A DNA stretch of 64,000 nucleotides, from assembly GCA_964354795.1 (NCBI GenBank), contig CAYHBB010000040.1, forward strand, positions 12,593-76,592, given 5' to 3'. The stretch comes from an uncultured Planctomycetales bacterium. Lineage in GTDB: Bacteria > Omnitrophota > Gorgyraeia > Gygaellales > Profunditerraquicolaceae. Positions 2,534-26,922 of this stretch are shown here, piece by piece; the first letter of the stretch is position 1, and every line of letters starts with the position of its first letter. The translations under genes and the position numbers were made by a program. The notes under the pieces were generated by a model that saw only the letters and a list, made by a program, of their open reading frames with translations, was not told the origin of the DNA and did no database searches.

Positions 2534-2562
2534 AACACTGGCTTATCCTATAAAGCCAGGTG
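2534..2562. repeat. 29-bp palindromic intergenic element, copy A (between phoR and greA)
   Basis: aacactggcttatcctataaagccaggtg. The arms cactggctt / aagcca(g)gtg form a 9-bp stem with a 1-nt bulge and an 8-nt loop. On the minus-strand RNA it is followed by UUUUGUUUCC. It is identical to copy B at 26894-26922. Confidence 0.7.
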
Positions 2563-4371
2563 CATTCCTTTACTAATAGTAAACCAAAATTTGGAACCCA
2601 GCCCCTCAATGCTCTCGACACCCACGCTTCCGCCGTGGAGTTCAGCGATATGCTTGACTATTGATAGCCCAAGACCAGTTCCACCCATCTCCCGAGAACG
2701 CGCCTTATCCACCCGGTAAAAACGCTCAAAGATTCGTGGGATATCTTTTGCGGGAATACCTATGCCGGTATCTTCCACAAAAACCTTAAGTACATCCTGA
2801 CTGTCATCAGCATAAATCTTAATATTACCGCCATCTTTATTAAACTTTAAGGCATTATCCAATAGATTCGTTATCACCTGTTCCACTCTATTACGATCTG
2901 CCCGCACCATCAAAAACGCAGGCAAACCGTTAGTAATCTCAATATTTTTCTTCTTAAGCTGCGAGTTAAATCCGAATACTACCTGCCCAACCAGTTCCCT
3001 AAGATTAAAATCTTCCTTTCTTAAAACGATTTCCCTTGATTCCATAGAAGATAAATCCAATAAGTCGTTGATCAGGTTATTCAACCTATCCGCATGATTC
3101 TGGATTATCTTTAAGAACTGCCGGCCATGCTCTTGGTCATCCATGGCCCCCTCTAATAGCGTCTCTACAAATCCCTTAATCGAAGTAAGCGGAGTCTTGA
3201 GCTCATGGGAAACGTTAGCCACAAAGTCACGGCGCATTGACTCCAATTTTCTTATTTCGGTTATATCGTGTATCACCACCAGACACCCAATCACACTATT
3301 CTTTTCAAAAATAGGCGTGGCGTTGAGCTGAAATATCCGCTGGACCGGCCAAACAAGATTAAGCTCTCGCGACAGAGCTTTGCCGCCTTTTAACACCTCA
3401 TTGATGATCTCAGAAATATCGTTATTTGGGATTGCTTGCAGAAATAGCTTATTCTCGGCCTCCTGCCGGGAAACGCTAAATATCTTCTCAATACTATGAT
3501 TGAGCGAGACAATGTGGCCATTTTTGTCAAGAACCACTACCCCCTCGATCATACTATTTAAAATTGCTCCCAGATGCTGGTTTTGCCTAGTGATCTGGCT
3601 AATTTTATCCTCTATATCCTGGGCCATCTTGTTTAAGGTCAAGGCGAGTTCTGCGATTTCATCATGCGAACCATTAGGTATCCTGCGACTAAAATCTCCA
3701 TGAGAGAACTTTTGAGAAACCAGAATAATCTTGTTAATCGGAGCAAGCAAGGCACGCGCTAATAAAGTACCGAAGACAAGAGCAAGAATCAGGCCAAAAA
3801 GGATACCAACAAAAATAGTTTTACGAACCGCAGAAAGGTTGTTTTGAATATTAGTCAGAGGAAGCGATAATCTTAAGACCCCTTTTATCCCGTAGCTATC
3901 TTTAATTGGCAAAGCAACATAAAACATGTCCATTTTAAGCGTCGATGAGTAACGAATACTATCCCCCACCTCGCCGCTTAACGCCTGTCTGACCTCCGGA
4001 CGGAATAAGTGGTTTTCTAATGACTGTCCATCCCGCAACGGATCTTCGGAATCATTAAGAACTACCCCCTTACTATCAATAACAGTAATACGACATTTTG
4101 CCTGTTGACGCAGTTTTTTGATGTAAGCATCCAGCGAACCGGCATTATCAGACCCCGGGAACTTAGCCTTAACCTGATCTTCGATAAGATAAGCCTGGTT
4201 AATAAGGGAAGACCTGATCTCCTGCAGAGAATTTTCTTCGAGTCGCTTATCAAGGAAAAAAGCGACCAAGCTAAAAGCCCCTATGATAACAAAAACATAG
4301 GAAAGAAAAAGCTTGTTTTTAAAACTGCACCTGCGAAAAAACATAGATTTTTTATCTTGACCTGATGGCAA
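2548..4371 (-). CDS. phoR: sensor histidine kinase, PhoR-like (TM-HAMP-PAS-HisKA-HATPase)
   Basis: 607 aa with a TM anchor, a second TM helix, a HAMP domain, a PAS-like segment, an H-box FVANVSHELKTPLTSI, an N-box LLDNALKF, a G1 box VEDTGIGIP and a G2 box GGTGLGLSIV. It is adjacent to phoU, pit and phoB. It overlaps phoU by 20 nt. Confidence 0.85.
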   Translation of the reverse strand: MPSGQDKKSMFFRRCSFKNKLFLSYVFVIIGAFSLVAFFLDKRLEENSLQEIRSSLINQAYLIEDQVKAKFPGSDNAGSLDAYIKKLRQQAKCRITVIDSKGVVLNDSEDPLRDGQSLENHLFRPEVRQALSGEVGDSIRYSSTLKMDMFYVALPIKDSYGIKGVLRLSLPLTNIQNNLSAVRKTIFVGILFGLILALVFGTLLARALLAPINKIILVSQKFSHGDFSRRIPNGSHDEIAELALTLNKMAQDIEDKISQITRQNQHLGAILNSMIEGVVVLDKNGHIVSLNHSIEKIFSVSRQEAENKLFLQAIPNNDISEIINEVLKGGKALSRELNLVWPVQRIFQLNATPIFEKNSVIGCLVVIHDITEIRKLESMRRDFVANVSHELKTPLTSIKGFVETLLEGAMDDQEHGRQFLKIIQNHADRLNNLINDLLDLSSMESREIVLRKEDFNLRELVGQVVFGFNSQLKKKNIEITNGLPAFLMVRADRNRVEQVITNLLDNALKFNKDGGNIKIYADDSQDVLKVFVEDTGIGIPAKDIPRIFERFYRVDKARSREMGGTGLGLSIVKHIAELHGGSVGVESIEGLGSKFWFTISKGMHLAL

Positions 4372-5020
4372 CGACTTTTATGAAATCAGCCGCATCCTCA
4401 ATTTTATCCGTTACCCCTTCAAGATACTCAGCAAGCTGATAGCTCAACAATAGGCTGATAGGCTCTAGTTTTGCGTGAATAATCGACTCTATAAGAAGCT
4501 GCTTCTGGTCATCCGCCTCATGCTCAAAGCGATCAATCTCCTCGCAATCTATAAGCGCCTTCTTAAGATCATTCTTGGCCAGCCCATTGATCGCCTCCTG
4601 CAGCTTAGTAATCGAATCGATGATCGTCCCAGTCGCGGTAGTCATATTCTTGAGAACATTCTCCGGAAGCTTCTGCTCGATAAACCCGAGGATTCTGGCT
4701 GCGCCGTTGGTCCAGTCGGCGATTTTATCAAGAGTTTTGACGAAATGCATAAGATCTTCCCGGTCAGGAGGATTGAGTAGACTCTCGGAAAGCTCTTTTA
4801 CCATTTTAGAGCGCAAGAGGTCAGCCTGATGTTCGCCTTCACGCACTTTTCCAATGGCAACCGCCTTAGCGCTGATATCCCCTTTTGTAAACGCGCTTAC
4901 CGCTTCAGCAAAAAATTTCACTGTCTTACATGTTTCCTCGACATGCTTCTGCGCATCCTTGATGATCGAAAGCTCCTCTGCCATCCCTAACCAACCTAGA
5001 ATATTCCTCATTTCTTTCAT
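4352..5020 (-). CDS. phoU: phosphate signalling complex protein PhoU
   Basis: 222 aa all-helical protein with the duplicated PhoU repeat and acidic E/D-rich motifs. It lies between the PiT transporter and the PhoR-like kinase. Confidence 0.8.
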   Translation of the reverse strand: MKEMRNILGWLGMAEELSIIKDAQKHVEETCKTVKFFAEAVSAFTKGDISAKAVAIGKVREGEHQADLLRSKMVKELSESLLNPPDREDLMHFVKTLDKIADWTNGAARILGFIEQKLPENVLKNMTTATGTIIDSITKLQEAINGLAKNDLKKALIDCEEIDRFEHEADDQKQLLIESIIHAKLEPISLLLSYQLAEYLEGVTDKIEDAADFIKVVAIRSR

Positions 5021-5022
5021 CT

Positions 5023-6009
5023 CTATCCTCCTATTTTAAAAAATACGTAAAGTCCCTTAAGTACCAGGAAACTGATTATGCCTGAGATAAACGGAGTCGC
5101 TAGCCAACAGATGATGATTTCTTTCATAATCGACAAATTTACCACTCTCACACCCTTGACTAATCCTACGCCAAAAATTGCCCCAACAATAGAATGGCTT
5201 GTGGAAACCGGTATACCAAAAATCGTATACACATGTACGTTTATAGCGCTGGCGAGTTGCGCGGAAAAAGCCATGATCGGCAGAAGGCTGGTGATTCCCG
5301 ATCCGATAGTCTCGATGACTTTGTATCCCCAAGTCATAATGCCTAATACTATCGCTAACCCCCCGATTAAAATACTGGCATTGACAGAAAGGACACCGGC
5401 GCCGGCGATAACGCCTACTGAGTTGGCGACATCATTTGCGCCCCAAGTAAAAGCAACGTAACAACCGCTGACAATGATCAAGGCCGAAAGAATAAACCTT
5501 AAGTATCTACGCGGAATAATCCGGTAGAAGATATTCTTAAAAATCCGATAAAAAATATATCCTAAGACCGCAGCCCCAATAGGGGTAAAAATCCAACAGA
5601 CAAAAATATCTCCTATCACCTTCCATTTTACCGGAGCGCCTATCGCCAATCCTCCGCCTGCGACAGCTCCAACGATAGAGTGACTAGTAGAAATAGGCAT
5701 CTTCCAATACGTGGCCAGGACTACCCAAACGCATGCCGCAAAAGAAGCTACCAGCGCAAGATAAATCGACAGATCTTTCTGCAGTGTATCCATCGGTACG
5801 ATTCCTTTACCGATGGTCTTGACGACATTCGACCCCTGAAAATAAGCACCTAAAAAACCGAATATCGCAATCAAAACAATCGCCTGGCGCAGGTTAATAA
5901 CGCGCGAGCCCACTGCAGTACCCATGGAATTCGCGGCGTCATTGGCCCCTATAGACCAGCCAACAGCAATGCCCATCAAAATAGTGATGCCAACCAAGAA
6001 AATAAACAT
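5023..6009 (-). CDS. pit: inorganic phosphate transporter, PiT family (PHO4)
   Basis: 328 aa polytopic membrane protein. It has the two diagnostic GANDxANS signatures, GANDAANSMGTAVGS and GANDVANSVGVIAG. Confidence 0.9.
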   Translation of the reverse strand: MFIFLVGITILMGIAVGWSIGANDAANSMGTAVGSRVINLRQAIVLIAIFGFLGAYFQGSNVVKTIGKGIVPMDTLQKDLSIYLALVASFAACVWVVLATYWKMPISTSHSIVGAVAGGGLAIGAPVKWKVIGDIFVCWIFTPIGAAVLGYIFYRIFKNIFYRIIPRRYLRFILSALIIVSGCYVAFTWGANDVANSVGVIAGAGVLSVNASILIGGLAIVLGIMTWGYKVIETIGSGITSLLPIMAFSAQLASAINVHVYTIFGIPVSTSHSIVGAIFGVGLVKGVRVVNLSIMKEIIICWLATPFISGIISFLVLKGLYVFFKIGG

Positions 6010-6701
6010 TATTCTTCCTCTTGAAAGCGGTAACCGTAATTCTTTACCGTCATAATATACCTGGACTCTGATTTTAGCTTCTTGCGCAGCGACCTAATAT
6101 GCACATCTACGGTGCGGGTCTGGATCTCAATAGCGTGGTCATACCCCCAGATTGTATCCAATAAATAATCGCGCGAAAGCATCCTGCCCTTGGCTTTTAT
6201 TAGAGTCCTTAAAAGTTCGAATTCTTTTGCCGTAAGCGCTACCACCCTATCCTTCACCCGGACCTCTATCTTTGAGAAATCAATGCTCAGATCACCTATC
6301 CTTAAGACTTCCGGAAGTTTATCTTTTTCCTGGGCCCGGCGTAAAACCGCCTTGACCCGGGCAAGAAGCTCTCTAACGCTAAAAGGCTTGGTCACGTAAT
6401 CATCCGCTCCTAGCTCTAACCCAACCACCTTGTCTGACTCCTGACTCTTAGCAGTGACCATGATCACAGGAATACTTGCAGTCTTGGATTCCTTCTTAAG
6501 CTGCTTACAGACTTCCAGACCGTCAATCCCGGGAAGCATAAGGTCCAGTAAAATAAGATCCGGTCGCTCGGAATGCGCCATTTCAATAGCATCTTCTCCG
6601 TCGCGCGCGCAAACAGTTCGGTATCCTTCTTTCTTAAGGTTATACTCTACCATCTTCAAAATATCCTTATCATCTTCAACAATAAGAATCTTTTCTTTCA
6701 T
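6009..6701 (-). CDS. phoB: OmpR/PhoB-family response regulator
   Basis: 230 aa. It has a REC domain (ILIVEDDKDI...DLMLPGIDG...K) and a C-terminal winged-helix trans_reg_C domain (RLLARVKAVLRR...LTAKEFELL...GYRF). It overlaps pit by 1 nt and the queG-like gene by 4 nt. Confidence 0.9.
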   Translation of the reverse strand: MKEKILIVEDDKDILKMVEYNLKKEGYRTVCARDGEDAIEMAHSERPDLILLDLMLPGIDGLEVCKQLKKESKTASIPVIMVTAKSQESDKVVGLELGADDYVTKPFSVRELLARVKAVLRRAQEKDKLPEVLRIGDLSIDFSKIEVRVKDRVVALTAKEFELLRTLIKAKGRMLSRDYLLDTIWGYDHAIEIQTRTVDVHIRSLRKKLKSESRYIMTVKNYGYRFQEEE

Positions 6702-7372
6702 TTATTTTTACCTTTGCAAACATTCACGCATACTCCGCAAATATACTGGTCAACTAGCTTTTGCCTCTGAAAATCTTTGAGCTTCTCAAGACACTTTGCG
6801 CGATCAAAATCCCTGCTTTCTTCTTTTATCGCCTGAGCCGGACAGGCTGAAACGCAAAGCCTGCAGGTATCGCAACCGTCTTTTGCCGGTTTATCCAACT
6901 TTAACGGCATATCCGTAAGAATAGTGGCCAAGCGGAACTGGCTGCCCAACCTCTTGCTCACCAAAAGATTATTCCTGCCTATCCAGCCCAGACCGGCTAA
7001 AACCCCCAAATGCCGGTGGGATAGATGCGCGGTCTGATTTTCCCAATCCACAATAATGGATGCCGGGATTTGTAGTGCCCTGAAACCTTTACTCTGAATA
7101 TAATTACTTACCTTGAGCGCGGACTGATCCAAAAAAGCATTCACTGTACGATAATGATGAAAATAAAGCCTAGTAGGAGCGCTAGTGATTTCTTCCAGGA
7201 TACTTGAGGAAAGTCTGACACCCAGGCATACTGCCTTATCCAGCTTTTTTAAAACATCTTTAGAAACCTTGATGTGCTCTTTTATGCCGGATATATCCCC
7301 TACCCCGAAAAGCTCTATGCCTAAATTCTGGCAGTATTTTTTAAGCGAATTATACGCGGTTACTTTACTCAT
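6698..7372 (-). CDS. queG: epoxyqueuosine reductase QueG-like protein (short form, 4Fe-4S)
   Basis: 224 aa. The motif WENQTAHLSHRHLGVLAGLGWIGRNNLLVSKRLGSQFRLATILTDMPL resembles the QueG cobalamin/DUF1730 core. There is one CxxCxxCxxxCP ferredoxin motif (CDTCRLCVSACP) plus a C-terminal CGVCVNVC. It is shorter than canonical QueG (~350-380 aa). It sits next to mnmG, another tRNA wobble-modification enzyme. Confidence 0.6.
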   Translation of the reverse strand: MSKVTAYNSLKKYCQNLGIELFGVGDISGIKEHIKVSKDVLKKLDKAVCLGVRLSSSILEEITSAPTRLYFHHYRTVNAFLDQSALKVSNYIQSKGFRALQIPASIIVDWENQTAHLSHRHLGVLAGLGWIGRNNLLVSKRLGSQFRLATILTDMPLKLDKPAKDGCDTCRLCVSACPAQAIKEESRDFDRAKCLEKLKDFQRQKLVDQYICGVCVNVCKGKNK

Positions 7373-9228
7373 TTTTCTAACTTTCTTAAATATACCATCA
7401 ACAACGAGATTGCCGCGGGAGTGACTCCTGAAATGCGCGAGGCCTGCCCTAAATTGATCGGCTTAAACTTCCCCAGTTTTTCCTTTATTTCCCGGGAAAG
7501 GCTTGATAGATTTTTATAATCCAGGTCCTCGGGCAGCCGGATCTTCTCCAGATTCTTTAACCTCTCCACATCCTTAAGCTGCCTCTGAATGAACCCTGAA
7601 TATTTTACCTCTATTTCAATATGACGCAAGGCTAAATCTGAGATTTCTAAACATCCTCGATCCACCTCTTTCAAATCAGGCGCGCTCACCTGCGGCCTCT
7701 TCAAAAGCTCTTCCAGCGTAGTGTCTTTAATAAGTGCCGCGGTATTAAGTTTTCCCAGCCGATTGTTGACTTGCATGCCCGGTTTTATCCGTGTGCTCTT
7801 TAAATAGCGCATTCCGACCTCTATTGATCTAGATTTCTCCTCTACCTGCCGGTATTTCTCTTCACTCAACAAACCAACGTCAAATCCGATTTTGCTCAGA
7901 CGCAAGTCCGCGTTATCTTCGCGAATGATCAGCCGGTACTCGACCCGAGAAGTAAACATACGGTACGGCTCATTGGTGCCCTTGGTAGTCAGATCATCGA
8001 TCAGCACGCCGATATAACTGCTGGAACGGTCTAGGACCAGCGGCTCTTTGCCTCTTACCCGTAAAACTGCATTGATCCCGGCGACTAATCCTTGCGCAGC
8101 CGCCTCTTCATAACCAGTTGTGCCGTTGATCTGCCCGGCTAAATACAGACCCTTAATCAGCTTAGTCTCCAGGGTTGGATTTAGCTGTGTGGGCTCAACC
8201 ACCGCATGCTCAATCCCGTAACCAAAACGGATAACCTTGGCATTCTCTAGCCCTTCGATAGAATGGATCAAATCCAGCTGCACATCTTCAGGTAGGCTTG
8301 TAGAGATGCCATTAGGATATATCTCGTCAGAATCCCTTCCCTGCGGTTCAAGGAATATCTGATGCCTATCTTTATCAGCGAATTTTACGACTTTATCCTC
8401 AATAGACGGGCAATAGCGCACACCTGTGGCCTTGATCAGGCCGGCGTAAAGCGGAGAGCGGTCCAGATTATCACGAATAATTTCATGGGTGCGCGGATTA
8501 GTATGGGTGATGTGACAGGGAACCTGCTCCTGGGACAGACGAGAGGTAAAAAACGAGAATGGCTTTGGCGGCTTATCCCCCTCCTGGATAATAAGCTTGG
8601 AGAAATCTATTGAGCTCTTATTTAAACGAGGGCAAGTGCCGGTTTTAAAACGTAAAAGGTTAAAATTTAATTCTTTAAGATTTTGAGCCAGACTTGCAGA
8701 AGCAGGCTCATTGATCCGGCCTCCGGGATGATGATTTAGGCCGATATGGATCAGGCCGTCCAGAAAGGTTCCGGCACAGATAATCACGCACTGAGCGGTA
8801 ATCCTCTCATTATCCTGCGTCAGGACCCCGCATGCCCGGCCGCCTTCTACTATCAATTCTTTTACCTGTGCTTCTTTCACGCTCAGGCCTTCGGTTTCTC
8901 CGGCAAGCCTTACCATGTAGCGATTATACTGATACATGTCTACCTGGGCCCGCGATGACTGCACTGCCGCGCCTTTAGAAGCATTAAGAATACGAAACTG
9001 TATGCCGCAGGCATCTGCGGCTAAACCCATTTCACCGCCCAAGGCATCTATTTCCTTGACCAGCTGGCCTTTACCTACGCCTCCGATAGCCGGATTACAG
9101 CTCATGGCGCCAATCGTGCTCTTATCAAGATTCAGCATCAGGGTCTTGCAACCCAGGCGCGCACCTGCCAATGCCGCTTCCACGCCGGCATGTCCGGCAC
9201 CGACCACTATAATATCGAAATCATTCAT
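7369..9228 (-). CDS. mnmG: tRNA uridine 5-carboxymethylaminomethyl modification enzyme MnmG (GidA)
   Basis: A full-length MnmG homolog. It has the N-terminal FAD dinucleotide motif DIIVVGAGHAG, as in MnmG N-termini, and conserved blocks along its whole length. The ORF track extends to a TTG at 9252, but the ATG at 9228 (MNDFDIIVVGAGHAG) matches MnmG N-termini. The extension would overlap the left IR of the RAYT element. Confidence 0.9.
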   Translation of the reverse strand: MNDFDIIVVGAGHAGVEAALAGARLGCKTLMLNLDKSTIGAMSCNPAIGGVGKGQLVKEIDALGGEMGLAADACGIQFRILNASKGAAVQSSRAQVDMYQYNRYMVRLAGETEGLSVKEAQVKELIVEGGRACGVLTQDNERITAQCVIICAGTFLDGLIHIGLNHHPGGRINEPASASLAQNLKELNFNLLRFKTGTCPRLNKSSIDFSKLIIQEGDKPPKPFSFFTSRLSQEQVPCHITHTNPRTHEIIRDNLDRSPLYAGLIKATGVRYCPSIEDKVVKFADKDRHQIFLEPQGRDSDEIYPNGISTSLPEDVQLDLIHSIEGLENAKVIRFGYGIEHAVVEPTQLNPTLETKLIKGLYLAGQINGTTGYEEAAAQGLVAGINAVLRVRGKEPLVLDRSSSYIGVLIDDLTTKGTNEPYRMFTSRVEYRLIIREDNADLRLSKIGFDVGLLSEEKYRQVEEKSRSIEVGMRYLKSTRIKPGMQVNNRLGKLNTAALIKDTTLEELLKRPQVSAPDLKEVDRGCLEISDLALRHIEIEVKYSGFIQRQLKDVERLKNLEKIRLPEDLDYKNLSSLSREIKEKLGKFKPINLGQASRISGVTPAAISLLMVYLRKLEK

Positions 9229-9235
9229 AATATAC

Positions 9236-9851
9236 CCAGGGACGGTTCTCAAAACAAAGCAAAAGTGTCCCTTTTTGTTATTTATTTATGTTAGAAATTG
9301 GCACCTTGTCCGTCTATTATATTAGGAGGTGGTGAATATGACTAGGATAGCCAGGATAGCTATGGACAATGCTGTGTATCATATTATCACAAGGGGCAAT
9401 CAGAAACAAACGGTTTTTAGAGAACAACGAGATTATACGGAGTATTTATCGCGGCTGGAATTCTATAAGAAGAAATACGCCTTCAAGCTATATTCATTTT
9501 GCCTGATGCCTAACCATGTACATTTAATTATCGAGGTAGATGTTAATTCGAAGTTAAACAAGATTATGCGAGGACTAAATCTTAGTTACACCTTATATTT
9601 TAATTTCAAATATAAGACCGTTGGGCATCTTTGGCAAGATCGTTTTAAGAGTAAAATTATCGAGAAAGATACATATCTCCTAGAATGTATTAATTATATT
9701 GAAGCAAATCCTCTGCGAGCAAACCTAACATCAAATATAGAAGAATATGTCTGGAGTAGTTATGCTTTTAAGAAAAAAGAGAATACTCTTTTAGACAACA
9801 TATTCTCTTTATAGGGGGACACTTTTCGATTGAGTTGAGAACCGTCCCTGG
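9236..9851. mobile_element. Compact RAYT element bounded by nested inverted repeats (REP-doublet-like)
   Basis: A perfect 17-bp inverted repeat occurs as ccagggacggttctcaa (9236-9252) and ttgagaaccgtccctgg (9835-9851). An inner 11-bp inverted repeat occurs as aaaagtgtccc (9261-9271) and gggacactttt (9816-9826). Together they bracket the RAYT gene exactly. The element fills the whole gap between mnmG and apgM. Confidence 0.65.
9329..9814 (+). CDS. REP-associated tyrosine transposase (RAYT) / IS200-like Y1 transposase
   Basis: 161 aa. It has the HUH motif (PNHVHLIIE) and a downstream catalytic Tyr region (YIEANPLRA) typical of the Y1_Tnp (IS200/RAYT) fold. It is the only plus-strand gene in the window and is flanked by nested inverted repeats. 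Confidence 0.8.
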   Translation: MVNMTRIARIAMDNAVYHIITRGNQKQTVFREQRDYTEYLSRLEFYKKKYAFKLYSFCLMPNHVHLIIEVDVNSKLNKIMRGLNLSYTLYFNFKYKTVGHLWQDRFKSKIIEKDTYLLECINYIEANPLRANLTSNIEEYVWSSYAFKKKENTLLDNIFSL

Positions 9852-11135
9852 CTATTCTTTTGCGAGTTTTACCAGGAGGGGCATGATATCTGTTCCGTTG
9901 ATCTGGCCGATGCTCCCAAGCTTTGCGGCTTTTTCTGAGAAGCTCATTGAGCCATCAGGCTTTATATTTCCCCCGCAGACCAGTAAAGGAACAGGATCTG
10001 CGGTGTGAGCCCTAGCTTTGCAGCTGGTAGAGTGATCTGCGGTCACCGCGATTATAGAATTCTCCAAATCAAGGCCCTGCAGCAAGGGCCCGAAGAAATG
10101 CTTGTCGATGGCTTCGATGACCTCGATCTTACGCTTACAATCTCCGTCATGCGAGGGGTCATCCGGGCCCTTGATATGGATATACAATCCATCAAAACTC
10201 TTGATACACTCAACTGCCAGCTTCCCCCATACCGGATAATCTACGTCAAAGTGACCCGTGGGCTGCGGCACATCAATGACTTCTATCCCGGTCAAAAGGG
10301 CAATCCCCTTCTCTACCGGCATCTGCACAAAGGAAGCGAATTTAAGGCCGAAGTTCTTTTCTACGGAAGGAAATTTCGGCAAGGAATCTCCGGCATCGCG
10401 CATCAATATAAGATTTCCCGCTAGCTTCCCCTCCAAGACCCTTTTCTTATTCAGCGAAGACTCATTTAAGACCTTGTTAGACTTTACAGTAAACTCATTT
10501 AACAGCTTTGCAGTCTCCCGAGCCTCGATAGATCCTTCATGGCCGGGCATGGGGATTGAATCTAAAACCAGATTCTCAAACTTCTCCCTTGCCACGCCAA
10601 AAAAACCTTGCCTGCCATAAGCCGGGTCAGTGTTAGTCACCAAACCGGACAATTTAGAGCGCACGCCGCGGATGATCAGTATCCCGCGATGGCCGATAGT
10701 GCTCTTAAACTCAAAAGTCCCGCTACTTAAGGTCACCTTTTGGTTGATCTCTTTGGCCAGCATCGCCGCGTCATCCGTAGCCAAGTCTCTGCCTACGCGC
10801 CGGTCAAGAATGGTGCGCCCGTCATCGCCAGCTGTAGCAAAGTTCACCCGCAAAGCCACATCCCCATCATTAGTAGGCACGCCTTCGGCAAAAGATTCAA
10901 GCGGCCCCCGGCCGGTATAAAACTTAGCCGCGTCATACCCTAAGAGGCTGATCACCGCGATGTCAGACTCAGGAGCGATGCCCTTTGCCACCGGATAAAC
11001 CACGCCGGTTATACCTTTCTGCGCAAGCCGGTCCATATTAGGCGTAACTGCCGCCTCAAGCGGAGTCTTGTTTTTAAGCTCTTTTAAAGGCAGGTCTCCC
11101 AAGCCGTCCAACACCACATATACTATTTTCTTCAT
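9852..11135 (-). CDS. apgM: 2,3-bisphosphoglycerate-independent phosphoglycerate mutase, archaeal type (ApgM family)
   Basis: 427 aa. The N-terminus MKKIVYVVLDGLGD...KTPLEAAVTPNMDRLA and the metalloenzyme core are collinear with ApgM-type iPGMs. Confidence 0.8.
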   Translation of the reverse strand: MKKIVYVVLDGLGDLPLKELKNKTPLEAAVTPNMDRLAQKGITGVVYPVAKGIAPESDIAVISLLGYDAAKFYTGRGPLESFAEGVPTNDGDVALRVNFATAGDDGRTILDRRVGRDLATDDAAMLAKEINQKVTLSSGTFEFKSTIGHRGILIIRGVRSKLSGLVTNTDPAYGRQGFFGVAREKFENLVLDSIPMPGHEGSIEARETAKLLNEFTVKSNKVLNESSLNKKRVLEGKLAGNLILMRDAGDSLPKFPSVEKNFGLKFASFVQMPVEKGIALLTGIEVIDVPQPTGHFDVDYPVWGKLAVECIKSFDGLYIHIKGPDDPSHDGDCKRKIEVIEAIDKHFFGPLLQGLDLENSIIAVTADHSTSCKARAHTADPVPLLVCGGNIKPDGSMSFSEKAAKLGSIGQINGTDIMPLLVKLAKE

Positions 11136-11161
11136 AAATTCTTAACAGCCTATTTAGCGTT

Positions 11162-11196: not shown

Positions 11197-11221
11197 ACCG
11201 GTTTACCTATATATTAGGGCT

Positions 11222-15889: not shown

Positions 15890-15931
15890 GGTCCTCCCTT
15901 CAAAGTAAACCTATAAATAATCCCCTAAAAA

Positions 15932-21446: not shown

Positions 21447-21492
21447 TGCAACTTCTCCTTTCCTTTATACACCTACTACTCTTTTTTTTATT

Positions 21493-23802
21493 TTATTTCC
21501 TATTCCAGGCCTTCTTGTACATGTAGTATGACTTGCGCAGCTGCCGCAGGAACGGGCTTATTGTCCCGTCCCCCTGGCCGGCTAAACCAAGCCACTCTTC
21601 ATGCATGTAGCCATCCGGAAAAGGCCCGGCCCACAGGCCCTTAGTGTCATGGATCTTCGGCTCATACGCCTTCCACCACTCATCCAGATATTCAAAAGCG
21701 ATCCCGCCGACTGAGTTGCCCGCTCCGCCGTGGAACGCCATATTATGCTCAATATCCTCCCAGGAGCCGCGGTGAAACTGCGCCTGCAAATCTTCGACCT
21801 GCTCAGCAGTTTTCCCTTCGGCATATGCCGGGCACCCATACTCAGTGATAAACGCTGGCCTATCCGCCTCTTCCTTGACACTTTGCCATAAACGGCCGAA
21901 GCCGTAATCCCCGCGATAAGCGTTTGTCCCGAACATATCCACATCAGGAGCGTTCTTGCCGAATTTATCCAGGAATAAAACATCCCCACTGCAGACCGCC
22001 ACCGGATGCTCTGGGTCTATAGACTTGATGACCTTAGCCACCTCATTGACGAAAGCGAAATAGGCATCCGGCTTTTTGTCGGCGTTGCAGGCGTAGCCGT
22101 ATACATTCTCATTTCCCAGAAGCCAGAACAGAATAAACGGCTCATCCTTATATTCATTGATCATAGAAGTGACAGACTCGATCATCTTTTTCTTTTGTTC
22201 TTCATTCTCATAATCCGTGCCCGGGTTCCATGCCGCACCTGACCCAAGCGCGTATTTACCAAGAAAATCCCCCATGATCACCCGTATGCCGTATTTTTTA
22301 TACATTTGGCGAAGAAGCTCTTTGCTCACTTTTTGCGGATGATGATACACGCGGATAGAGTTGACACCCATCTCTCTCATCAGCCTGAAATCTCCCACTG
22401 ACGGCTCATTGGCATCCTGCTTATTATTTTTATTTTTATCCACAAAGGCGTCATACGGCCCGTCGATTTTTCCGTTCTTATTAAAATCGTCATACATCCA
22501 ATCGGTAAGCGTCCCCTCATCCGGAGACTGCCCGACTTTTGTGGGAGCGTAAGTCACCGCCCTGATCACAAAAGGCTTATTGTTCACTATCATCTGCCAA
22601 TCGCCTGTCTCATACTGGATCAAATGCACCTTGCCGTGCCCCAAGCGCTTCTTTATGCTTAAAAACTCCGTAGCCTGTTTAGGCTTTAGTTTATCCCAAA
22701 GAGTAGGCTTGCCCATCTTGACGAACTTTCCCGGGCTGGCGATCACCACGTCATTAGAGACATCATTATCAAAACCATTGACCACCTTGATATCCGCATC
22801 CTGCAGCTTAAGCCCTAGCTGCGGATTGCGGCGTAAAAGGGAATTTATTTTAGCCAAAGCCGCCTGCCCCACATACCAGGGAGTATGCCAGTAGGTCCAG
22901 CCGTAACTGGCCGGATAATGTACCACTATGGCGTAATAACATTTAATAGCATGTTTGAGCAAACCGGCTTTTTCCAGCACAAGGCCGGTATAAAACATCC
23001 TTACTCCCGGGGGCTCTGCCGCGGTAGCCCATTTTAAAAACGCCGCTTCTAGATCCGGGGACTGCGAAAAATCCCAATGCGTTCCCTCAAGCCGTTTTTC
23101 TTTCACCGCTTTTTTAAATTCAGGATCCTGGCGGATAGATGAAGTATTAGGATAGATCCCTTCCCCGACAGCAGCGATCAAACCGGCCTGGTCCTTGATC
23201 AGATACTCGTAATCCTTGGTACCGGCATTCTTGAACTCGCCGTACTTCTCGTAATTGACCACATCTTCTTTGCCGGGATCGAATAAAACGACTTTTGTCG
23301 GAAGCTGGCTGACTTTCTTCTTCTGCTGCTCCAGCTCATTAGTGCCGGTCTCAAGCTTCTGTATGCTCTGCTTGGAAGCCTCAGCTATCTTCCAGTACCA
23401 TCCGCGGGGATCCCATGCCTGGGCATAAGGATATTTATCGATGATCAGTAAAAAGAGTTTTTTAGCATCTTCAACCTTCTGCTGGCGCATATAAGACTCT
23501 GCCTGGATAAAATACGCGGTAGCCACATCATTAAGCACGGTCACCGCCTCTATTTCATCCTTACCCTTAGGGATGCCGGTAAGTATTGCCTGCTGCTTAT
23601 CCGCCTCATCCTTATAAAGATCGATGCACTCTTGTGTATATTTAAAAGTTTCTTCGACATCGCCCTTGCCGTGCACAGTCCAGGCCTTGACTACCAATTC
23701 TCCGGAAGAAGGCTTTTGTACAACAGGCTCAGCCTCCTGGGCATAAGAAACCCTCAAAGCACAAACCGCAAAGATTAAAATCAATAATCTGGCGACTTTC
23801 AT
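21493..23802 (-). CDS. secreted TPR-like + clan GH-A glycoside hydrolase fusion
   Basis: 769 aa with a signal peptide. It has an N-terminal helical/TPR-like half and a C-terminal catalytic domain (GVNSIRVYHH...; WLLGNENVYGYA) paralogous to the 18959..20254 product. The stop overlaps the ABC permease start by 1 nt. Confidence 0.6.
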   Translation of the reverse strand: MKVARLLILIFAVCALRVSYAQEAEPVVQKPSSGELVVKAWTVHGKGDVEETFKYTQECIDLYKDEADKQQAILTGIPKGKDEIEAVTVLNDVATAYFIQAESYMRQQKVEDAKKLFLLIIDKYPYAQAWDPRGWYWKIAEASKQSIQKLETGTNELEQQKKKVSQLPTKVVLFDPGKEDVVNYEKYGEFKNAGTKDYEYLIKDQAGLIAAVGEGIYPNTSSIRQDPEFKKAVKEKRLEGTHWDFSQSPDLEAAFLKWATAAEPPGVRMFYTGLVLEKAGLLKHAIKCYYAIVVHYPASYGWTYWHTPWYVGQAALAKINSLLRRNPQLGLKLQDADIKVVNGFDNDVSNDVVIASPGKFVKMGKPTLWDKLKPKQATEFLSIKKRLGHGKVHLIQYETGDWQMIVNNKPFVIRAVTYAPTKVGQSPDEGTLTDWMYDDFNKNGKIDGPYDAFVDKNKNNKQDANEPSVGDFRLMREMGVNSIRVYHHPQKVSKELLRQMYKKYGIRVIMGDFLGKYALGSGAAWNPGTDYENEEQKKKMIESVTSMINEYKDEPFILFWLLGNENVYGYACNADKKPDAYFAFVNEVAKVIKSIDPEHPVAVCSGDVLFLDKFGKNAPDVDMFGTNAYRGDYGFGRLWQSVKEEADRPAFITEYGCPAYAEGKTAEQVEDLQAQFHRGSWEDIEHNMAFHGGAGNSVGGIAFEYLDEWWKAYEPKIHDTKGLWAGPFPDGYMHEEWLGLAGQGDGTISPFLRQLRKSYYMYKKAWNRK

Positions 23803-24656
23803 TATCCTACAATAGCTCCCTGAGTGACACCCTTGATAATATATTTCTGCATCAGAACATAAACTACAATAATAGGTAAGGCGGCGATAGTAAGTCCAGC
23901 CATGAGCAGCGGATAATTGGTCACGAATTCACCCTGAAATACCTGCAGAGCCACCTGAAGAGGCATAAAACTTTTGGAATCAAAGATGATCAAAGCTAAA
24001 ACGTACTCATTCCACACCGCAAGTGCGTTGAAAACTACCACTACTGCCAACACCGGCTTAGCCAGCGGCAAAGCCACGTGCCACCAGATACCCAGCTTTG
24101 AACAGCCGTCAATACGCGCGGCGTCCTCAAGCTCCTTAGGCATTTTATCAAAGAAAGTCTTGAGCATGAATATGCTAGTGGATAAGCCGACGTTGATCAT
24201 TGCCAGAATGTAACCAATAGGGGTATTACGCAGATGCAGCTTGTTCAATAAAACATAAAGCGCCACAAAACTTCCCGGAATCGGTATCATCATCGCGGCC
24301 ATGAACATCACAAATAAAATGTTTTTCCCCGGAAACTTAAGACGGGAGAATGCGTATGCCGCCATAGAAGAGATGATCACTATACCGCAAACTACCGTCA
24401 CCGTGTAGATGATACTGTTCAAAAAATACCGGCCGAATCCGCCCTCGACCCAAGCCTGATAATAATTGGCAAAGTTAAAGTGCGTCGGGATCAATGACGC
24501 GTCTTTAAAAATCGTATCCTGAGTTTTAAAGCTGGCAGCGATCATCCAAAGCAAAGGATACACGCAGGTCACTGCCACAGCCAGCAAAAATAAATGTATC
24601 AGCACATTAATGGTGGTCTTCTTGGTCTTATAGTACATAACGGCTTTTGGCTGCAT
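23802..24656 (-). CDS. carbohydrate ABC transporter permease (MalG/UgpE-like)
   Basis: 284 aa with six predicted TM helices. It has the EAA-loop region (ELEDAARIDGCSKLGIWWHVALPLAKP) typical of binding-protein-dependent transport permeases. Confidence 0.85.
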   Translation of the reverse strand: MQPKAVMYYKTKKTTINVLIHLFLLAVAVTCVYPLLWMIAASFKTQDTIFKDASLIPTHFNFANYYQAWVEGGFGRYFLNSIIYTVTVVCGIVIISSMAAYAFSRLKFPGKNILFVMFMAAMMIPIPGSFVALYVLLNKLHLRNTPIGYILAMINVGLSTSIFMLKTFFDKMPKELEDAARIDGCSKLGIWWHVALPLAKPVLAVVVVFNALAVWNEYVLALIIFDSKSFMPLQVALQVFQGEFVTNYPLLMAGLTIAALPIIVVYVLMQKYIIKGVTQGAIVG

Positions 24657-24659
24657 ACT

Positions 24660-25547
24660 TTATTGCCTGGCTTTCTTTGAGAAACGGTATTGGATAAATG
24701 AGATGGCCACCAGGATCACGCCGAAACTGATACCTTGAGCGCAGGCGTAGCCAAAACGCGATGACCCGCGCATTGAAGCAAGTATTCTTAACACCGGAAC
24801 CGAGGTGTGGCCGGCGAATTCTCCGCCGACAAGGCCGATTATCAAGACGAATATCTGCATAGTCCCCAGTACCGTAAGTATCGCCACCAGCACGATGACC
24901 GGGACCATCAAAGGAATAGTCACATTCTTAAAAGACTGCCAGGCATTGGCTCCGTCCACACGAGCCGCTTCGTATAATTCACGCGGTATGGTCTGCAGTC
25001 CGGCAAGAAAGATCAGAAATCCCCAACCAAAACCTTTCCAGCAATGTACCAATGCAACGGTAGTCAGCGCGGTATTCGGGTCATTGAGCCAGCTGTGCAC
25101 CAAATTCGGCAGGCCGATACCTGTCAGCATGCGGTTGATCATATTGGCGCCTTCTACGTCGTTAATAATGAAGCGCCAGACCATGCCCACCACGATCTCG
25201 GATAATACCGGTGGGATAAAAAATATCACCCGATAGAAATTCTTCATGCGGATCTCGCGGTCACATGCCAAAGCCAGCATAAAAGCAAAAGCATTCTGCA
25301 AGGTCAGCGCGATAACCGTGATCCAGGTGGCGTTAAACATCGACTGCCACCAGCTTCTATCCTGCAATAAAATCTCTTTGAAATTATTGATCCCGACGAA
25401 CTGGGCCATGCCGAGCGGAACGATCCCGTCCCAGTCATAAAAACCCAGCTTAAAGACATAAATAAAAGGAATAATATAAAAAACAGAAAAAATCAAAACC
25501 GCGGGGAGGACAAAAACGTAATTCTCTAAAGTCGACTTGATGCGCAT
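24660..25547 (-). CDS. carbohydrate ABC transporter permease (MalF/UgpA-like)
   Basis: 295 aa polytopic membrane protein. It has the EAA motif (LYEAARVDGANAWQSFKNVTIPLM). It lies between the substrate-binding protein and the second permease. Confidence 0.85.
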   Translation of the reverse strand: MRIKSTLENYVFVLPAVLIFSVFYIIPFIYVFKLGFYDWDGIVPLGMAQFVGINNFKEILLQDRSWWQSMFNATWITVIALTLQNAFAFMLALACDREIRMKNFYRVIFFIPPVLSEIVVGMVWRFIINDVEGANMINRMLTGIGLPNLVHSWLNDPNTALTTVALVHCWKGFGWGFLIFLAGLQTIPRELYEAARVDGANAWQSFKNVTIPLMVPVIVLVAILTVLGTMQIFVLIIGLVGGEFAGHTSVPVLRILASMRGSSRFGYACAQGISFGVILVAISFIQYRFSKKARQ

Positions 25548-25549
25548 GG

Positions 25550-26869
25550 TTAACGGGCCTTCTTTTTAGCCATCTCCCGCTCTTTTATCTTCTGAGTATC
25601 TAAAGCCACCTGCTCCGGAGTCTTTTCGCCAATGATGATAGACTGAATACCCATATCCCAGGTCTCAATGACCGCTGAGAACTCAGAGACTCCCCAAGTA
25701 TTAGGATGGGTAGCATAATCCATGCCTTTAGCGAATTGAGCCAGGACCTCGGGGATCTTGTTCAGACAGTTCTTGTTGGCGGGAAGATTATTGGTTGATT
25801 CGGAAAGATAAGCCTGCTGATCGCGGCTGGTAAGCCACTGCAGGAATTTCACCGCCTCATCCTTGTTCTTGGAATTGGCATTGACCATGAACGATGAACC
25901 GGCGCCTCCCCAGATAGCCATGGGAAATTTGTCGGTTACCTGCGGAGGAAGCATTGCCCCATACTCGATCTTGGGATTCATTCCTTTATATACGTTAACG
26001 CACCAGGAACCGTTAAAAGCGAAGACCGCTTTCTCATTGGCAAAAAGCTGCTCAGCAGTCTTATTCACCATGGTCACAACACCTGTGCCTATGAGCCCTG
26101 CTTCGCGCATATCCTTAAACACTGTCAACACCTTGATCCAGTCAGGATCGGTATAGGCAACCTCTCCCTTAATGGTCGCAATGACCTTATCTTTGCCCAT
26201 AATATTAAAGGCATAATTATTGGCAAAACAATCTGCCATCCATAATTCACCCCAGCCGGAGACCATGCCCTGCAGGCCGGCAACTTTGATCTTCTTTCCA
26301 AGAGCCAGGAAATCGACAAAATTCTGCGGGGGGTGCACTCCAAGGGACTTCAAAAGATTTTTATTATAGACCATCTGAATGGTCATGATATCTAAAGGAA
26401 CGCCATAAATGCCGGCCTTTGCGCCGTAGCTGTTTCCCTCGGCAAACTCATTTACCCCAAGGGCCTTGGCGAAAAAACTATTGAACCACTCAGAATTATT
26501 AGCCTGCATGTAAGGAGTAAGGTCCAGCACATATTCAGCCTTGACAAAAGAAGCAAAATCCCGCTTCTCACCGAGTATGCCGAATATGTCGGGAAGATTA
26601 GCACCCTGGCCTGCAGCACGTATCTTCTGAGTATAGGCGTCCGAGGGGGCGTAAAGTTCAAAATCTATTTTTACACCGGTCTGAGCTTCGTATTTCTTGG
26701 CGAGTTCCTGAAAGGCGGGCTCGCGGTCGGTCATCCAGTGCCAGATAGTGATAGTGGTTTTTGCGTTGGACTTATTTGCGGGGGAGCATCCTGCGGAAAA
26801 ACCTAACAGCAAAAGTGTTGGAATGATGAATAATGACAGAATCCGAAAACGCTTTCTTTCAGACAGCAT
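25550..26869 (-). CDS. extracellular solute-binding protein of a sugar ABC transporter
   Basis: 439 aa. It has a signal peptide with a lipobox-like LLLGFSAGCS. The rest is family-1 extracellular solute-binding protein fold sequence. It is the first gene of the permease operon and has an SD GGAGGAA. Confidence 0.85.
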   Translation of the reverse strand: MLSERKRFRILSLFIIPTLLLLGFSAGCSPANKSNAKTTITIWHWMTDREPAFQELAKKYEAQTGVKIDFELYAPSDAYTQKIRAAGQGANLPDIFGILGEKRDFASFVKAEYVLDLTPYMQANNSEWFNSFFAKALGVNEFAEGNSYGAKAGIYGVPLDIMTIQMVYNKNLLKSLGVHPPQNFVDFLALGKKIKVAGLQGMVSGWGELWMADCFANNYAFNIMGKDKVIATIKGEVAYTDPDWIKVLTVFKDMREAGLIGTGVVTMVNKTAEQLFANEKAVFAFNGSWCVNVYKGMNPKIEYGAMLPPQVTDKFPMAIWGGAGSSFMVNANSKNKDEAVKFLQWLTSRDQQAYLSESTNNLPANKNCLNKIPEVLAQFAKGMDYATHPNTWGVSEFSAVIETWDMGIQSIIIGEKTPEQVALDTQKIKEREMAKKKAR

Positions 26870-26893
26870 GATTCCTCCTTCCGCAGAAAGCGG

Positions 26894-26922
26894 AACACTG
26901 GCTTATCCTATAAAGCCAGGTG
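26894..26922. repeat. 29-bp palindromic intergenic element, copy B (between PilZ gene and sugar-binding protein gene)
   Basis: This copy is 29/29 identical to copy A. It lies 25 nt upstream of the SBP start codon, the same offset as copy A from the greA start (28 nt). It is followed on the RNA by a second small hairpin, UUCCGCUUUCUGCGGAA. Confidence 0.7.

What the first reader, a model, noticed from the sequence alone, without database searches (positions are those of the whole stretch)
2534..26922. Identical 29-bp palindromic element in two unrelated intergenic regions (upstream of greA and upstream of the sugar-binding protein gene), plus a related partial copy
aacactggcttatcctataaagccaggtg occurs 29/29 identical at 2534-2562 and at 26894-26922. 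Each copy lies 25-28 nt upstream of a minus-strand start codon and just downstream of the preceding co-directional gene (phoR and the PilZ gene). It folds into a 9-bp stem with an 8-nt loop. In the greA copy it is followed on the RNA by a U-rich run (UUUUGUUUCC), so it is terminator- or attenuator-like. A third locus at 1865-1879 shares the 15-nt core ctataaagccaggtg but has a different partner hairpin. Perfect identity between unrelated intergenic sites implies a dispersed repeat (REP/MITE-like, possibly mobilised by the RAYT) or a shared regulatory or terminator module.
Basis: seen in the sequence. Interest (0 to 1): 0.55.

Follow-up and report, generated by a model that had tools for sequence, protein, structure and literature searches.

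The report
Mobile two-hairpin repeat abutting ribosome-binding sites
The two identical 29-base palindromes are copies of a roughly 43-base, two-hairpin repeat of Candidatus Omnitrophota that has been inserted, in gene orientation, directly in front of the ribosome-binding sites of many unrelated genes; this placement is unusual for a bacterial dispersed repeat, and the element is not a terminator.

Summary
The 29-mer is exact at 2534-2562 and 26894-26922. The third, partial copy is at 1857-1871, not 1865-1879.

On the gene (minus) strand each copy is one unit:
- A-CAC-C(bulge)-N6-UAUAGGAU-N6'-GUG-UU (hp1)
- a 4-5 bp second hairpin (hp2)
- then, within 0-2 nt, the Shine-Dalgarno AAGGAGG and the start codon.

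A metagenome scan and a covariance model found about 90 further copies, and every organism-named relative is Candidatus Omnitrophota. The stems covary heavily. The bulged C and the loop GGA are invariant. 82 of 93 copies lead into an SD and start codon in the same sense. Downstream genes are diverse (greA, rpoA, rpsK, L19, L31, L35, HU, acpP, atpE, transporters).

Six orthologous junctions are filled in some genomes and empty in relatives, including both window sites. Some carry different subfamilies at the same SD. The element is therefore mobile.

It is not a terminator: the U-run after copy A is simply its own hp2. It matches no Rfam family and lacks the GTAG/CGTC tags of classical REPs. 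The window's RAYT has unrelated flanks.

Best reading: a new SD-abutting REP/MITE-like element transcribed into 5' leaders. Its RNA-level effect is unproven.

The parts
2521..2563 (-). Copy A, the full unit upstream of greA. hp1 is 2534-2563 (G-CAC-C-TGGCTT-TATAGGAT-AAGCCA-GTG-TT). hp2 is 2520-2534 (U-UUGU-UUCCU-ACAA-A).
   Evidence: Exact 29-mer. CM hit of 50.6 bits. Fold. hp2 analysis. Orthologous site empty in L100 and L099.
2507..2520 (-). Shine-Dalgarno AAGGGG (2515-2520) and the spacer to the greA ATG (2504-2506). The unit ends directly against it.
   Evidence: Sequence. The same SD region, AAGGGAG, is present in the empty ortholog L100.
2548..2550 (-). TAG stop codon of the phoR-like histidine kinase, lying inside the hp1 loop. 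The C-terminus is remodelled (..FWFTISKGMHLAL* versus ..FWFTIPKLNP* in the empty ortholog).
26881..26923 (-). Copy B, the full unit upstream of the sugar-binding-protein gene. hp1 is 26894-26923. hp2 is 26880-26894 (U-CCGC-UUUCU-GCGG-A).
   Evidence: Exact 29-mer. CM hit of 54.2 bits. Present in L101 and absent in L102, L103 and L104 at the syntenic PilZ-SBP junction.
26870..26880 (-). Shine-Dalgarno AAGGAGG (26874-26880) and the spacer to the ATG at 26867-26869.
   Evidence: Sequence. AGGAGGAAT is shared with the empty ortholog L102, so the SD is resident and not imported.
1802..1872 (-). Third locus, a nested and decaying composite. The outer hairpin is ACACC-TGGCTT-UAUAG...CGGAA-AAGUUG-GUG. 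Its loop holds an inner unit: hp1' at 1830-1856 (CACC-TTGGCA-TAAGTGAT-TGCCAA-GTG) and hp2' at 1816-1827 (TCCC-TTGT-GGGA).
   Evidence: The ortholog in L098 has the outer arm CAACTT pairing perfectly with AAGTTG, and an inner hairpin with a mismatch. The same nested architecture occurs in L045 and L078.
1776..1801 (-). hp2-like hairpin CTCCAT-TTTCT-ATGGAG followed by an SD-like GGAGGTGAT with no start codon after it. This is a relic of the outer unit's 3' end.
   Evidence: Sequence.
26995..27033 (-). Promoter-like TTGACC-17-TACATT for the sugar-binding-protein gene, conserved in five genomes. It places copy B inside the 5' UTR.
9232..9855 (+). RAYT-like Y1 transposase gene (9329-9814) with 40-bp terminal inverted repeats. 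It is a candidate mobilising enzyme only; no link to the element was shown.

Best explanation
The 29-mer is the large hairpin (hp1) of a roughly 43-nt, two-hairpin, non-autonomous repeat family of Candidatus Omnitrophota.

Shown:
- The unit is (U)A-CAC-C(bulge)-6 bp-UAUNGGAU-6 bp-GUG-UU, followed by a 4-5 bp hairpin (hp2).
- It sits in the sense orientation with its 3' end 0-2 nt from the SD (A)GGAG of very diverse genes.
- It is present or absent at orthologous junctions of related genomes.
- Different subfamilies occupy the same junction.
- It forms tandem arrays, and it nests inside the loop of another copy just 5' of that loop's GGAU.

Inferred:
- It spreads by copy-and-paste into the position immediately 5' of GGAG/GGAU motifs. 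The folding strand is the gene-sense strand. A single-strand hairpin-recognising (HUH/RAYT-like) enzyme is the most plausible driver, but none is identified.
- Because of where it lands, it is transcribed as the last ~45 nt of the 5' leader. There the two hairpins are tolerated or mildly useful (a structured leader next to a free SD), rather than acting as a terminator or a gene-specific regulator.
For: Structure:
- Of 100 matches to CACC-N6-TATAGGAT-N6-GTGTT, 57 have at least 5 of 6 N6/N6' pairs. About 3 would be expected if each pair formed by chance with probability 6/16.
- There are more than 15 different upper stems.
- Covariation score is 0.566 against 0.209 in shuffles, and pairing collapses when partners are slid.
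- RNAalifold on 58 units predicts hp1 and hp2 independently, with 11 of 13 pairs showing double-sided changes.
- hp2 was never part of any search, yet it is present (4-5 bp) in 56 of 56 units, against 25% of shuffles.

Position:
- 64 of 93 CM hits have an SD, start codon and ORF 18-38 nt downstream in the same sense. 18 more have one 64-115 nt downstream, mostly upstream members of arrays.
- The hp2-to-SD gap is 0-2 nt in 54 of 56 units.

Mobility, from filled versus empty orthologous junctions:
- phoR-greA
- PilZ-SBP
- NAD synthase-asnC, a clean 43-nt extra unit
- rpsM-rpsK, a clean 44-nt insert between TAA and GGAG, and rpsD-rpoA
- aconitase-pilT, filled by two different subfamilies.
The exact hp1 also occurs at non-orthologous loci of MAG GCA_026387455.1, which lacks it at greA and at SBP.

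Turnover: between the window and L098, flanks are 87-88% identical and hp1 is 29/29 identical, but hp2 differs at 7 of 13 positions with full compensation.

Nested copies.

Taxon.
Against: - No transposase, target-site duplication or excision product was identified.
- The window's RAYT-like gene has unrelated 40-bp flanks that are not dispersed in 640 kb of sampled sequence.
- In tight operon junctions, the only tolerated insertion point is between the stop codon and the SD. Selection could therefore mimic target specificity, although copies in long leaders (SBP, rpoA) also abut the SD.
- A few inverted copies and F-R-F composites do not fit a simple '5' of GGA' rule.
- Density in loci chosen without regard to the element is low: 5 strong hits in about 196 kb, none of them in L106-L108. 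Copy number per genome is unknown.
- The seed set was selected for pairing of the upper stem and for the loop sequence. Conservation of TATAGGAT is therefore partly by construction.
- No expression data are available.
Confidence: 0.72

Rival explanations
1. It is primarily a cis-regulatory RNA. hp1 would be the operator for a phylum-specific RNA-binding protein (CsrA-like GGA binder or other), or a ribosome-docking/standby structure. By contacting the loop GGA and the adjacent SD, it would set translation or stability of many housekeeping mRNAs. Mobility would be secondary.
For: - The loop GGA, the bulged C and the ACAC/GUGU foot are invariant while the stems covary.
- A second GGA lies in the SD about 29 nt downstream, which is the two-site geometry used by CsrA (my own knowledge of CsrA leaders).
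- The position just before GGA is variable (A/C/U), as in A(N)GGA sites.
- hp2 abuts the SD at a fixed distance.
- Sense orientation is near-universal.
- The base 5' of CAC is A (51), G (6) or U (1) opposite U, with no C, so the one-step intermediates seen are G:U wobbles and not A:C, consistent with folding of the sense strand.
- Many targets are highly expressed genes.
Against: - Sites are not conserved. rpoA, rpsK, greA, SBP and pilT leaders lack the element in genomes with 73-94% identical orthologous proteins. A fixed regulon is therefore unlikely.
- No csrA was found by tblastn in 640 kb of associated sequence, though this is a weak negative.
- The residue two before GGA is mostly U, not the A of the CsrA consensus.
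- Predicted SD accessibility is not significantly different from controls (0.50 versus 0.44, p=0.07).
- Upstream array members lose GGA but keep their stems.
Confidence: 0.25
2. It is a classical REP mobilised by the RAYT-like Y1 transposase encoded at 9329-9814 in the same window.
For: - hp1 is a 30-nt imperfect palindrome with a bulge, the substrate type recognised by E. coli TnpAREP (PMC8266576).
- A RAYT-like gene (NCBIfam REP_Tyr_transpos, 79.5 bits against a cut-off of 80) lies in the window and in the close relative L098.
Against: - There is no GTAG or CGTC tag next to hp1: 5 of 58 have GTAG/CTAC nearby and 0 of 58 have CGTC/GACG. These tags define the REP superfamilies of PMC3733652.
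- The RAYT is flanked by unrelated 40-bp TIRs, not by hp1.
- REPs lie mainly downstream of genes and often in inverted pairs (PMC3733652). These copies lie upstream of SDs and mostly in direct orientation.
- MAG GCA_026387455.1 carries the element but lacks the RAYT at the syntenic site.
Confidence: 0.12
3. It is an intrinsic terminator or attenuator for the upstream gene (phoR, PilZ).
For: Copy A scores as terminator-like: a 7-bp stem followed by UGUUUUGUUU.
Against: - Copy B has no U-tract and is not scored as terminator-like.
- Across 58 units, hp1 is followed by GUGUU plus hp2 plus the SD.
- Copy B lies about 75 nt downstream of a conserved promoter, inside a 5' UTR.
- greA has its own strong terminator at 1984-2011.
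- Relatives lacking the element have stop codons overlapping the next SD, i.e. these are operon junctions meant to be read through.
Confidence: 0.03

Closest known systems
REP/REPIN elements and their RAYT (TnpAREP) transposases (E. coli, Pseudomonas, Stenotrophomonas)
   Same: Short (about 30 nt) imperfect palindromes with a bulge. Many dispersed copies fall into subfamilies whose stems covary. They persist across related genomes, occur in clusters, are co-transcribed with genes, and show no obvious target-site duplication.
   Different: No GTAG/CGTC tag. The unit has a second small hairpin. Copies sit 5' of the SD in sense orientation, rather than downstream of genes. They are mostly direct tandems rather than inverted doublets. 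The local RAYT is flanked by unrelated TIRs.
Transcribed MITEs that alter expression of neighbouring genes (Neisseria Correia/NEMIS, enterobacterial ERIC, pneumococcal BOX/RUP), from my own knowledge
   Same: Small non-autonomous repeats inserted in intergenic regions, carried on mRNAs, folding into hairpins, and variably present between strains.
   Different: Those are 100-150 bp with terminal inverted repeats and TA-type duplications, and none is known to abut the SD at a fixed 0-2 nt. This unit is about 43 nt, has no TIRs, and has a conserved loop motif.
IS200/IS605-family elements and their hairpin-only derivatives (PATEs)
   Same: Strand-specific hairpins with an extrahelical base. Insertion occurs next to a short specific sequence in a fixed orientation, with no duplication.
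   Different: Known members insert 3' of a tetra- or pentanucleotide at the left end and have similar hairpins at both ends. Here the conserved neighbour (GGAG) is at the 3' end on the sense strand, and the two hairpins differ.
Insertion sequences that target REP hairpins (IS1397; ISPpu9/ISPpu10, PMC12288879)
   Same: Nested insertion of one element into the hairpin of another dispersed repeat.
   Different: Those are full insertion sequences with transposase genes. Here a 43-nt unit nests in the loop of its own kind.
CsrA/RsmA-bound leaders
   Same: GGA presented in a hairpin loop, plus a second GGA in the SD a few tens of nt downstream.
   Different: CsrA sites are not repeats and share no stem foot or bulge. 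No csrA was found here, and the consensus around GGA differs.

Membership tests
REP (GTAG/CGTC-tagged superfamilies, PMC3733652) | Small (20-40 bp) palindromic unit present in many copies | tested here: met
   hp1 is 30 nt. 93 CM hits at E<0.01 in 589 kb of retrieved loci. Per-genome copy number was not measured.
REP (GTAG/CGTC-tagged superfamilies, PMC3733652) | Unpaired GTAG or CGTC motif at one end | tested here: not met
   5 of 58 have GTAG/CTAC and 0 of 58 have CGTC/GACG within 10 nt of the 5' end. The consensus flank is UACACC.
REP (GTAG/CGTC-tagged superfamilies, PMC3733652) | Located predominantly downstream of coding regions, often as inverted dimers | tested here: not met
   82 of 93 copies lead into an SD and start codon in the same sense. 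Only a handful are inverted.
REP/RAYT system (REPtron, PMC8266576) | RAYT gene flanked by its cognate REPs | tested here: not met
   The RAYT-like ORF 9329-9814 is flanked by 40-bp TIRs unrelated to hp1.
REP/RAYT system (REPtron, PMC8266576) | Imperfect palindrome interrupted by a bulge | tested here: met
   An invariant bulged C lies between the 4-bp foot and the 6-bp upper stem.
REP/RAYT system (REPtron, PMC8266576) | Cleavage and strand transfer of the single-stranded hairpin by the RAYT | not testable with these tools
   Needs biochemistry.
Intrinsic (Rho-independent) terminator | G+C-rich hairpin immediately followed by a U-tract | tested here: not met
   Only copy A passes the scan, through its own hp2. 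Copy B does not. The family consensus after hp1 is GUGUU plus hp2 plus the SD.
CsrA/RsmA-regulated leader | GGA in a hairpin loop plus GGA overlapping the SD | tested here: met
   GGA is invariant in the hp1 loop of 58 units, and AAGGAGG follows about 29 nt downstream. This is partly by construction of the search pattern.
CsrA/RsmA-regulated leader | csrA gene in the genome | tested here: inconclusive
   No tblastn hit in 640 kb of loci plus the window. Whole genomes were not available.
IS200/IS605-derived hairpin element (PATE) | Insertion 3' of a conserved tetra- or pentanucleotide at the left end, without duplication | tested here: inconclusive
   No duplication is seen at clean junctions, apart from an ambiguous AA. 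The left flank is only A/T-rich. The conserved neighbour GGAG is on the right; it would be a left-end CTCC only if the antisense strand is the active one.
Any Rfam 15 family | Match to a curated covariance model | tested here: not met
   Nothing relevant at E<=1 in 28 kb, nor at E<=10 on a 121-nt stretch or on the tandem array L060.

The most novel reading that the evidence does not exclude
The element is a site-specific mobile leader cassette. It recognises Shine-Dalgarno-like GGAG/GGAU sequences, perhaps through its own conserved GGA loop and foot read by a dedicated single-strand enzyme or RNA-binding protein. It installs a two-hairpin module directly against the ribosome-binding site, rewiring translation or mRNA stability of housekeeping genes across Omnitrophota. 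That would be a mobile element whose target is the SD itself.
Probability: 0.3. Interest if true: 0.8.

Novelty: new variant of a known kind. Interest (0 to 1): 0.6.

Why it matters
Small dispersed hairpin repeats are known, but none is known to me that lands with its end 0-2 nt from the Shine-Dalgarno sequence, in gene orientation, in front of core genes such as rpoA, rpsK, greA, HU or acpP.

If the targeting is real, it defines a new insertion specificity, possibly a new enzyme-substrate pair. It would also be a natural 'leader cassette' that changes the 5' UTR of essential genes in an uncultured phylum of ultra-small, possibly host-dependent bacteria.

In practice:
- It gives a compact marker for strain-level variation in Omnitrophota.
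- It is a ready-made, covariation-supported RNA/DNA motif missing from Rfam.
- It is a caution for gene callers, because here the insertion has rewritten the C-terminus of a histidine kinase.

Tried and rejected
- Terminator or attenuator: rejected.
- Promoter in the loop (TATAGG/TAGGAT as a -10 box): rejected. The base that would be the conserved A2 of TAGGAT varies (A/C/U) among copies. Conserved promoters lie upstream.
- Sigma-54 promoter: the spacing of GG and GC does not fit (by inspection).
- Rfam: no family.
- CRISPR-like array: the tandem copies are 43-47 nt apart, with only hp2-like sequence between them and no spacers.
- Integron attC: the R''/R' boxes are absent (by inspection).
- CsrA: no gene found in 640 kb. 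This was kept only as a rival.
- Insulator effect on SD accessibility: 0.50 versus 0.44 unpaired probability, p=0.07, not significant.
- Link to the RAYT flanks: the 40-bp TIR sequence occurs only at the RAYT itself in the window and L098.
- Co-transfer of upstream flanks between copies of the TGGCTT subfamily: none seen by eye.
- L001 (Spirochaetia) match to the 20-mer: different flanks and opposite polarity. About one chance match is expected in 596 Gb, so it is treated as chance.
- Literature: no description was found of this motif or of SD-abutting repeats in Omnitrophota.

Full report
**Observation.** The 29-mer AACACTGGCTTATCCTATAAAGCCAGGTG occurs exactly at 2534-2562 and 26894-26922. 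Nothing else matches within 3 mismatches, and there are no matches in 100 shuffles. The similarity extends to 46 nt at 85%. The 15-nt core of the 'third locus' is at 1857-1871, not 1865-1879. All neighbouring genes are on the minus strand: a PstS-like protein, DUF2490, GreA, a PhoR-like kinase, a sugar-binding protein and a PilZ protein. The element is therefore best read on the minus strand.

**Anatomy in the window.** On the gene strand both copies read:
- CACC-TGGCTT-TATAGGAT-AAGCCA-GTG-TT (hp1, with one C bulged)
- a second small hairpin (hp2)
- the Shine-Dalgarno sequence
- the start codon.

In copy A, hp2 is U-UUGU-UUCCU-ACAA-A, followed by AAGGGG, 8 nt and ATG. In copy B, hp2 is U-CCGC-UUUCU-GCGG-A, followed by AGGAGG, 4 nt and ATG. 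The two hp2 stems differ by compensatory changes. The TAG stop of the PhoR-like ORF lies inside the hp1 loop of copy A. A structural scan for CACC-6 bp-loop-6 bp-GTG finds just three such hairpins in 64 kb, all intergenic and all on the minus strand. The third is at 1830-1856.

**Relatives elsewhere.**
- A scan of 185,579 genomes with the 20-nt core found three more copies. All are in one Candidatus Omnitrophota MAG, and each is followed by GTGTT, a covarying hp2, AAGGAGG and ATG. A fourth hit, in a Spirochaetia MAG, has different flanks and is what chance predicts.
- A metagenome scan with CACC-N6-TATAGGAT-N6-GTGTT left both stems free. It gave 100 matches: 57 have at least 5 of 6 stem pairs and 43 have 0-4. 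About 3 paired matches would be expected if pairs formed by chance.
- The paired set has more than 15 different upper stems.
- A covariance model of hp1 found 93 hits at E<0.01 in 589 kb. These include loop variants UAAAGGAU, UAUCGGAU, UAUUGGAU, UAUAGGAA and AAUAGGAA.
- Covariation is strong: score 0.566 against 0.209 in shuffles, and pairing drops from 99% to 30-45% when partners are slid.
- RNAalifold on 58 unique units predicts hp1 and hp2 independently. Of 13 pairs, 11 show double-sided changes. The invariant bases are the CC (including the bulge) and the loop GGA.
- hp2 was never part of a search pattern. It is nevertheless present as a 4-5 bp stem in 56 of 56 units, against 25% of shuffles. 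It ends 0-2 nt from the SD in 54 of 56.

Caveat: the seeds were selected for upper-stem pairing and for the loop TATAGGAT. Those two features are therefore partly by construction. The bimodal pairing distribution, hp2, the foot covariation in non-seed hits and the positional data are not.

**Organism.** GreA, SBP and RpoA homologues that carry organism names, and all but one of the named cluster members of proteins downstream of diverse subfamilies (the exception a Margulisiibacteriota label in a 225-member cluster), are Candidatus Omnitrophica/Omnitrophota. The 12,019-aa ORF in the window also fits that phylum (PMC10066038).

**Position and targets.** Of 93 hits, 64 are followed 18-38 nt later by an SD, a start codon and an ORF in the same sense. 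Another 18 have one 64-115 nt downstream, mostly upstream members of tandem arrays. A few are inverted. The downstream genes are diverse and include many core genes: rpoA, rpsK, rpmI, rplS, rpmE, rpoZ, greA, an HU/IHF-type protein, acpP, atpE, rbfA, pgk, parA, parB, smc, kdpC, DUF2490, NifX-like proteins and small zinc-ribbon proteins. This is not a riboswitch-like regulon.

**Mobility.** Six orthologous junctions are filled in some genomes and empty in relatives.
1. phoR-greA. Filled in the window and L098. Empty in L100, where phoR ends ..FWFTIPKLNP* with TAA overlapping the SD, and in L099.
2. PilZ-SBP. Filled in the window and L101. Empty in L102, L103 and L104, although the promoter and most of the 5' UTR are conserved in L101-L103 (only the promoter in L104). 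AGGAGGAAT is shared with the empty L102, so the SD is resident.
3. NAD synthase-asnC. L098 has a clean extra 43-nt unit relative to L099.
4. rpsM-rpsK. L105 has a clean 44-nt insert between TAA and GGAG relative to L106 and L107.
5. rpsD-rpoA. Filled only in L003.
6. aconitase-pilT. Filled in L105 and L108 by different subfamilies, and empty in L106 and L107.

The MAG that carries the identical hp1 at three other loci lacks it at greA and at SBP.

Between the window and L098 the flanks are 87-88% identical and hp1 is 29/29 identical. Yet hp2 differs at 7 of 13 positions with full compensation. This points to replacement or conversion rather than point mutation.

At the third locus, L098 has the outer arm CAACTT pairing perfectly with AAGTTG. 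The window has TGGCTT there: three transitions, all wobble-compatible, which recreate the 15-mer of the dominant subfamily. That suggests short-patch conversion.

**Nested and tandem copies.** In L045, L078 and the window's third locus, an inner hp1+hp2 unit sits between UAU(A/C)N and GGAU (CGGAA in the window) of an outer copy's loop. This mirrors how single units sit just 5' of (A)GGAG. Tandem arrays usually contain different upper stems, and the SD-proximal copy is intact while distal ones decay. These patterns fit repeated insertion at the 5' edge of GGA-containing sequence. A few inverted copies and F-R-F composites do not fit that rule simply.

**What it is not.**
- Terminator. Only copy A looks like one, and only because of its own hp2. 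The family has GUGUU plus hp2 plus the SD after hp1. Copy B lies inside a 5' UTR downstream of a conserved promoter.
- Promoter. The would-be -10 position varies.
- Rfam family. None matches.
- Classical REP. There is no GTAG/CGTC tag, the location relative to genes is wrong, and the RAYT-like gene in the window (79.5 bits against a cut-off of 80 for REP_Tyr_transpos) is flanked by unrelated 40-bp TIRs. That RAYT unit is itself an insertion (PMC3733652, PMC8266576).

**Mechanism.** Shown: a discrete unit of about 43 nt, sense-oriented, SD-abutting, variably present, and with structure-preserving evolution. Where the base 5' of CAC departs from A it is G, giving a G:U wobble on the gene-sense strand (6 of 58), and never C.

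Inferred: the unit spreads by copy-and-paste through a single-strand hairpin intermediate to the 5' side of GGAG/GGAU. It then rides in the 5' leader. An RNA-level role is possible but unproven; options are protein or ribosome docking through the GGA loop, a structured leader, or stacking of hp2 on the SD helix. Predicted SD accessibility is not significantly changed, and no csrA was found in the sampled DNA.

Density in loci chosen without regard to the element is low and lineage-dependent. There were 5 strong hits in about 196 kb, and none in three genomes with 87-92% RpoA identity to the MAG that carries the element.

**Verdict.** The 'dispersed repeat' reading is right, the 'terminator' reading is wrong, and the RAYT link is open. 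It is a new, well-supported variant of the REP/MITE kind, with an unusual and testable property: it abuts ribosome-binding sites.

Noticed in passing
window 27839-63898 (-): A single ORF of 12,019 aa fills more than half the window. The syntenic gene in L104 is annotated at 41,759 aa. Giant ORFs have been reported for Omnitrophota (my recollection; not checked in PMC10066038).
   Followed up: no
window 9232-9855 (+); L098 1100-1770; L099 5780-5830; L100 4480-4640: The RAYT-like Y1 transposase gene (161 aa) with its 40-bp terminal inverted repeats is itself an insertion between the phosphomutase gene and gidA. It is present in the window and L098 and absent in L099. L100 carries a different inverted-repeat element at the same junction.
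   Followed up: partly
window 1745-1777 and 1947-1978: Direct repeats with an 11-bp period (CTATGTAAAAT twice, plus GATGTAAAATC). They lie upstream of the DUF2490-pstS genes and next to phoR/phoU-type genes, and look like Pho boxes. They are conserved in L098.
   Followed up: partly
window 26924-27033 (-); L101, L102, L103, L104: Conserved promoter (TTGACC-17-TACATT) and a conserved 5' UTR upstream of the sugar ABC-transporter binding-protein gene. The UTR has a hairpin UCCGG-N9-CCGGA and the motif TATAGGTAAGG, shared by four genomes with only 73-78% protein identity. This is a candidate leader element of its own.
   Followed up: partly
L106 9817-10001: A 183-nt insert between rpsD and rpoA made of long imperfect inverted repeats. 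It is a different MITE-like element at a junction that carries the two-hairpin unit in L003.
   Followed up: partly
window 2548-2600 (-): The insertion changed the C-terminus of the PhoR-like histidine kinase (..ISKGMHLAL* instead of ..IPKLNP*), with the stop codon supplied by the hairpin loop.
   Followed up: yes
window 1984-2011 (-): A strong intrinsic-terminator-like hairpin (12 pairs, followed by UUUUCUUUUA) lies directly after greA.
   Followed up: no
L016, L027, L062, L004 (e.g. L004 3050-3194): A recurrent composite leader: a forward unit, a long hairpin CGTCC-TAAAAA-GGACG, an inverted copy (bulged G on the 3' arm), a partial hp2, another forward unit, then the SD. This forward-reverse-forward arrangement is reminiscent of REP clusters.
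   Followed up: partly
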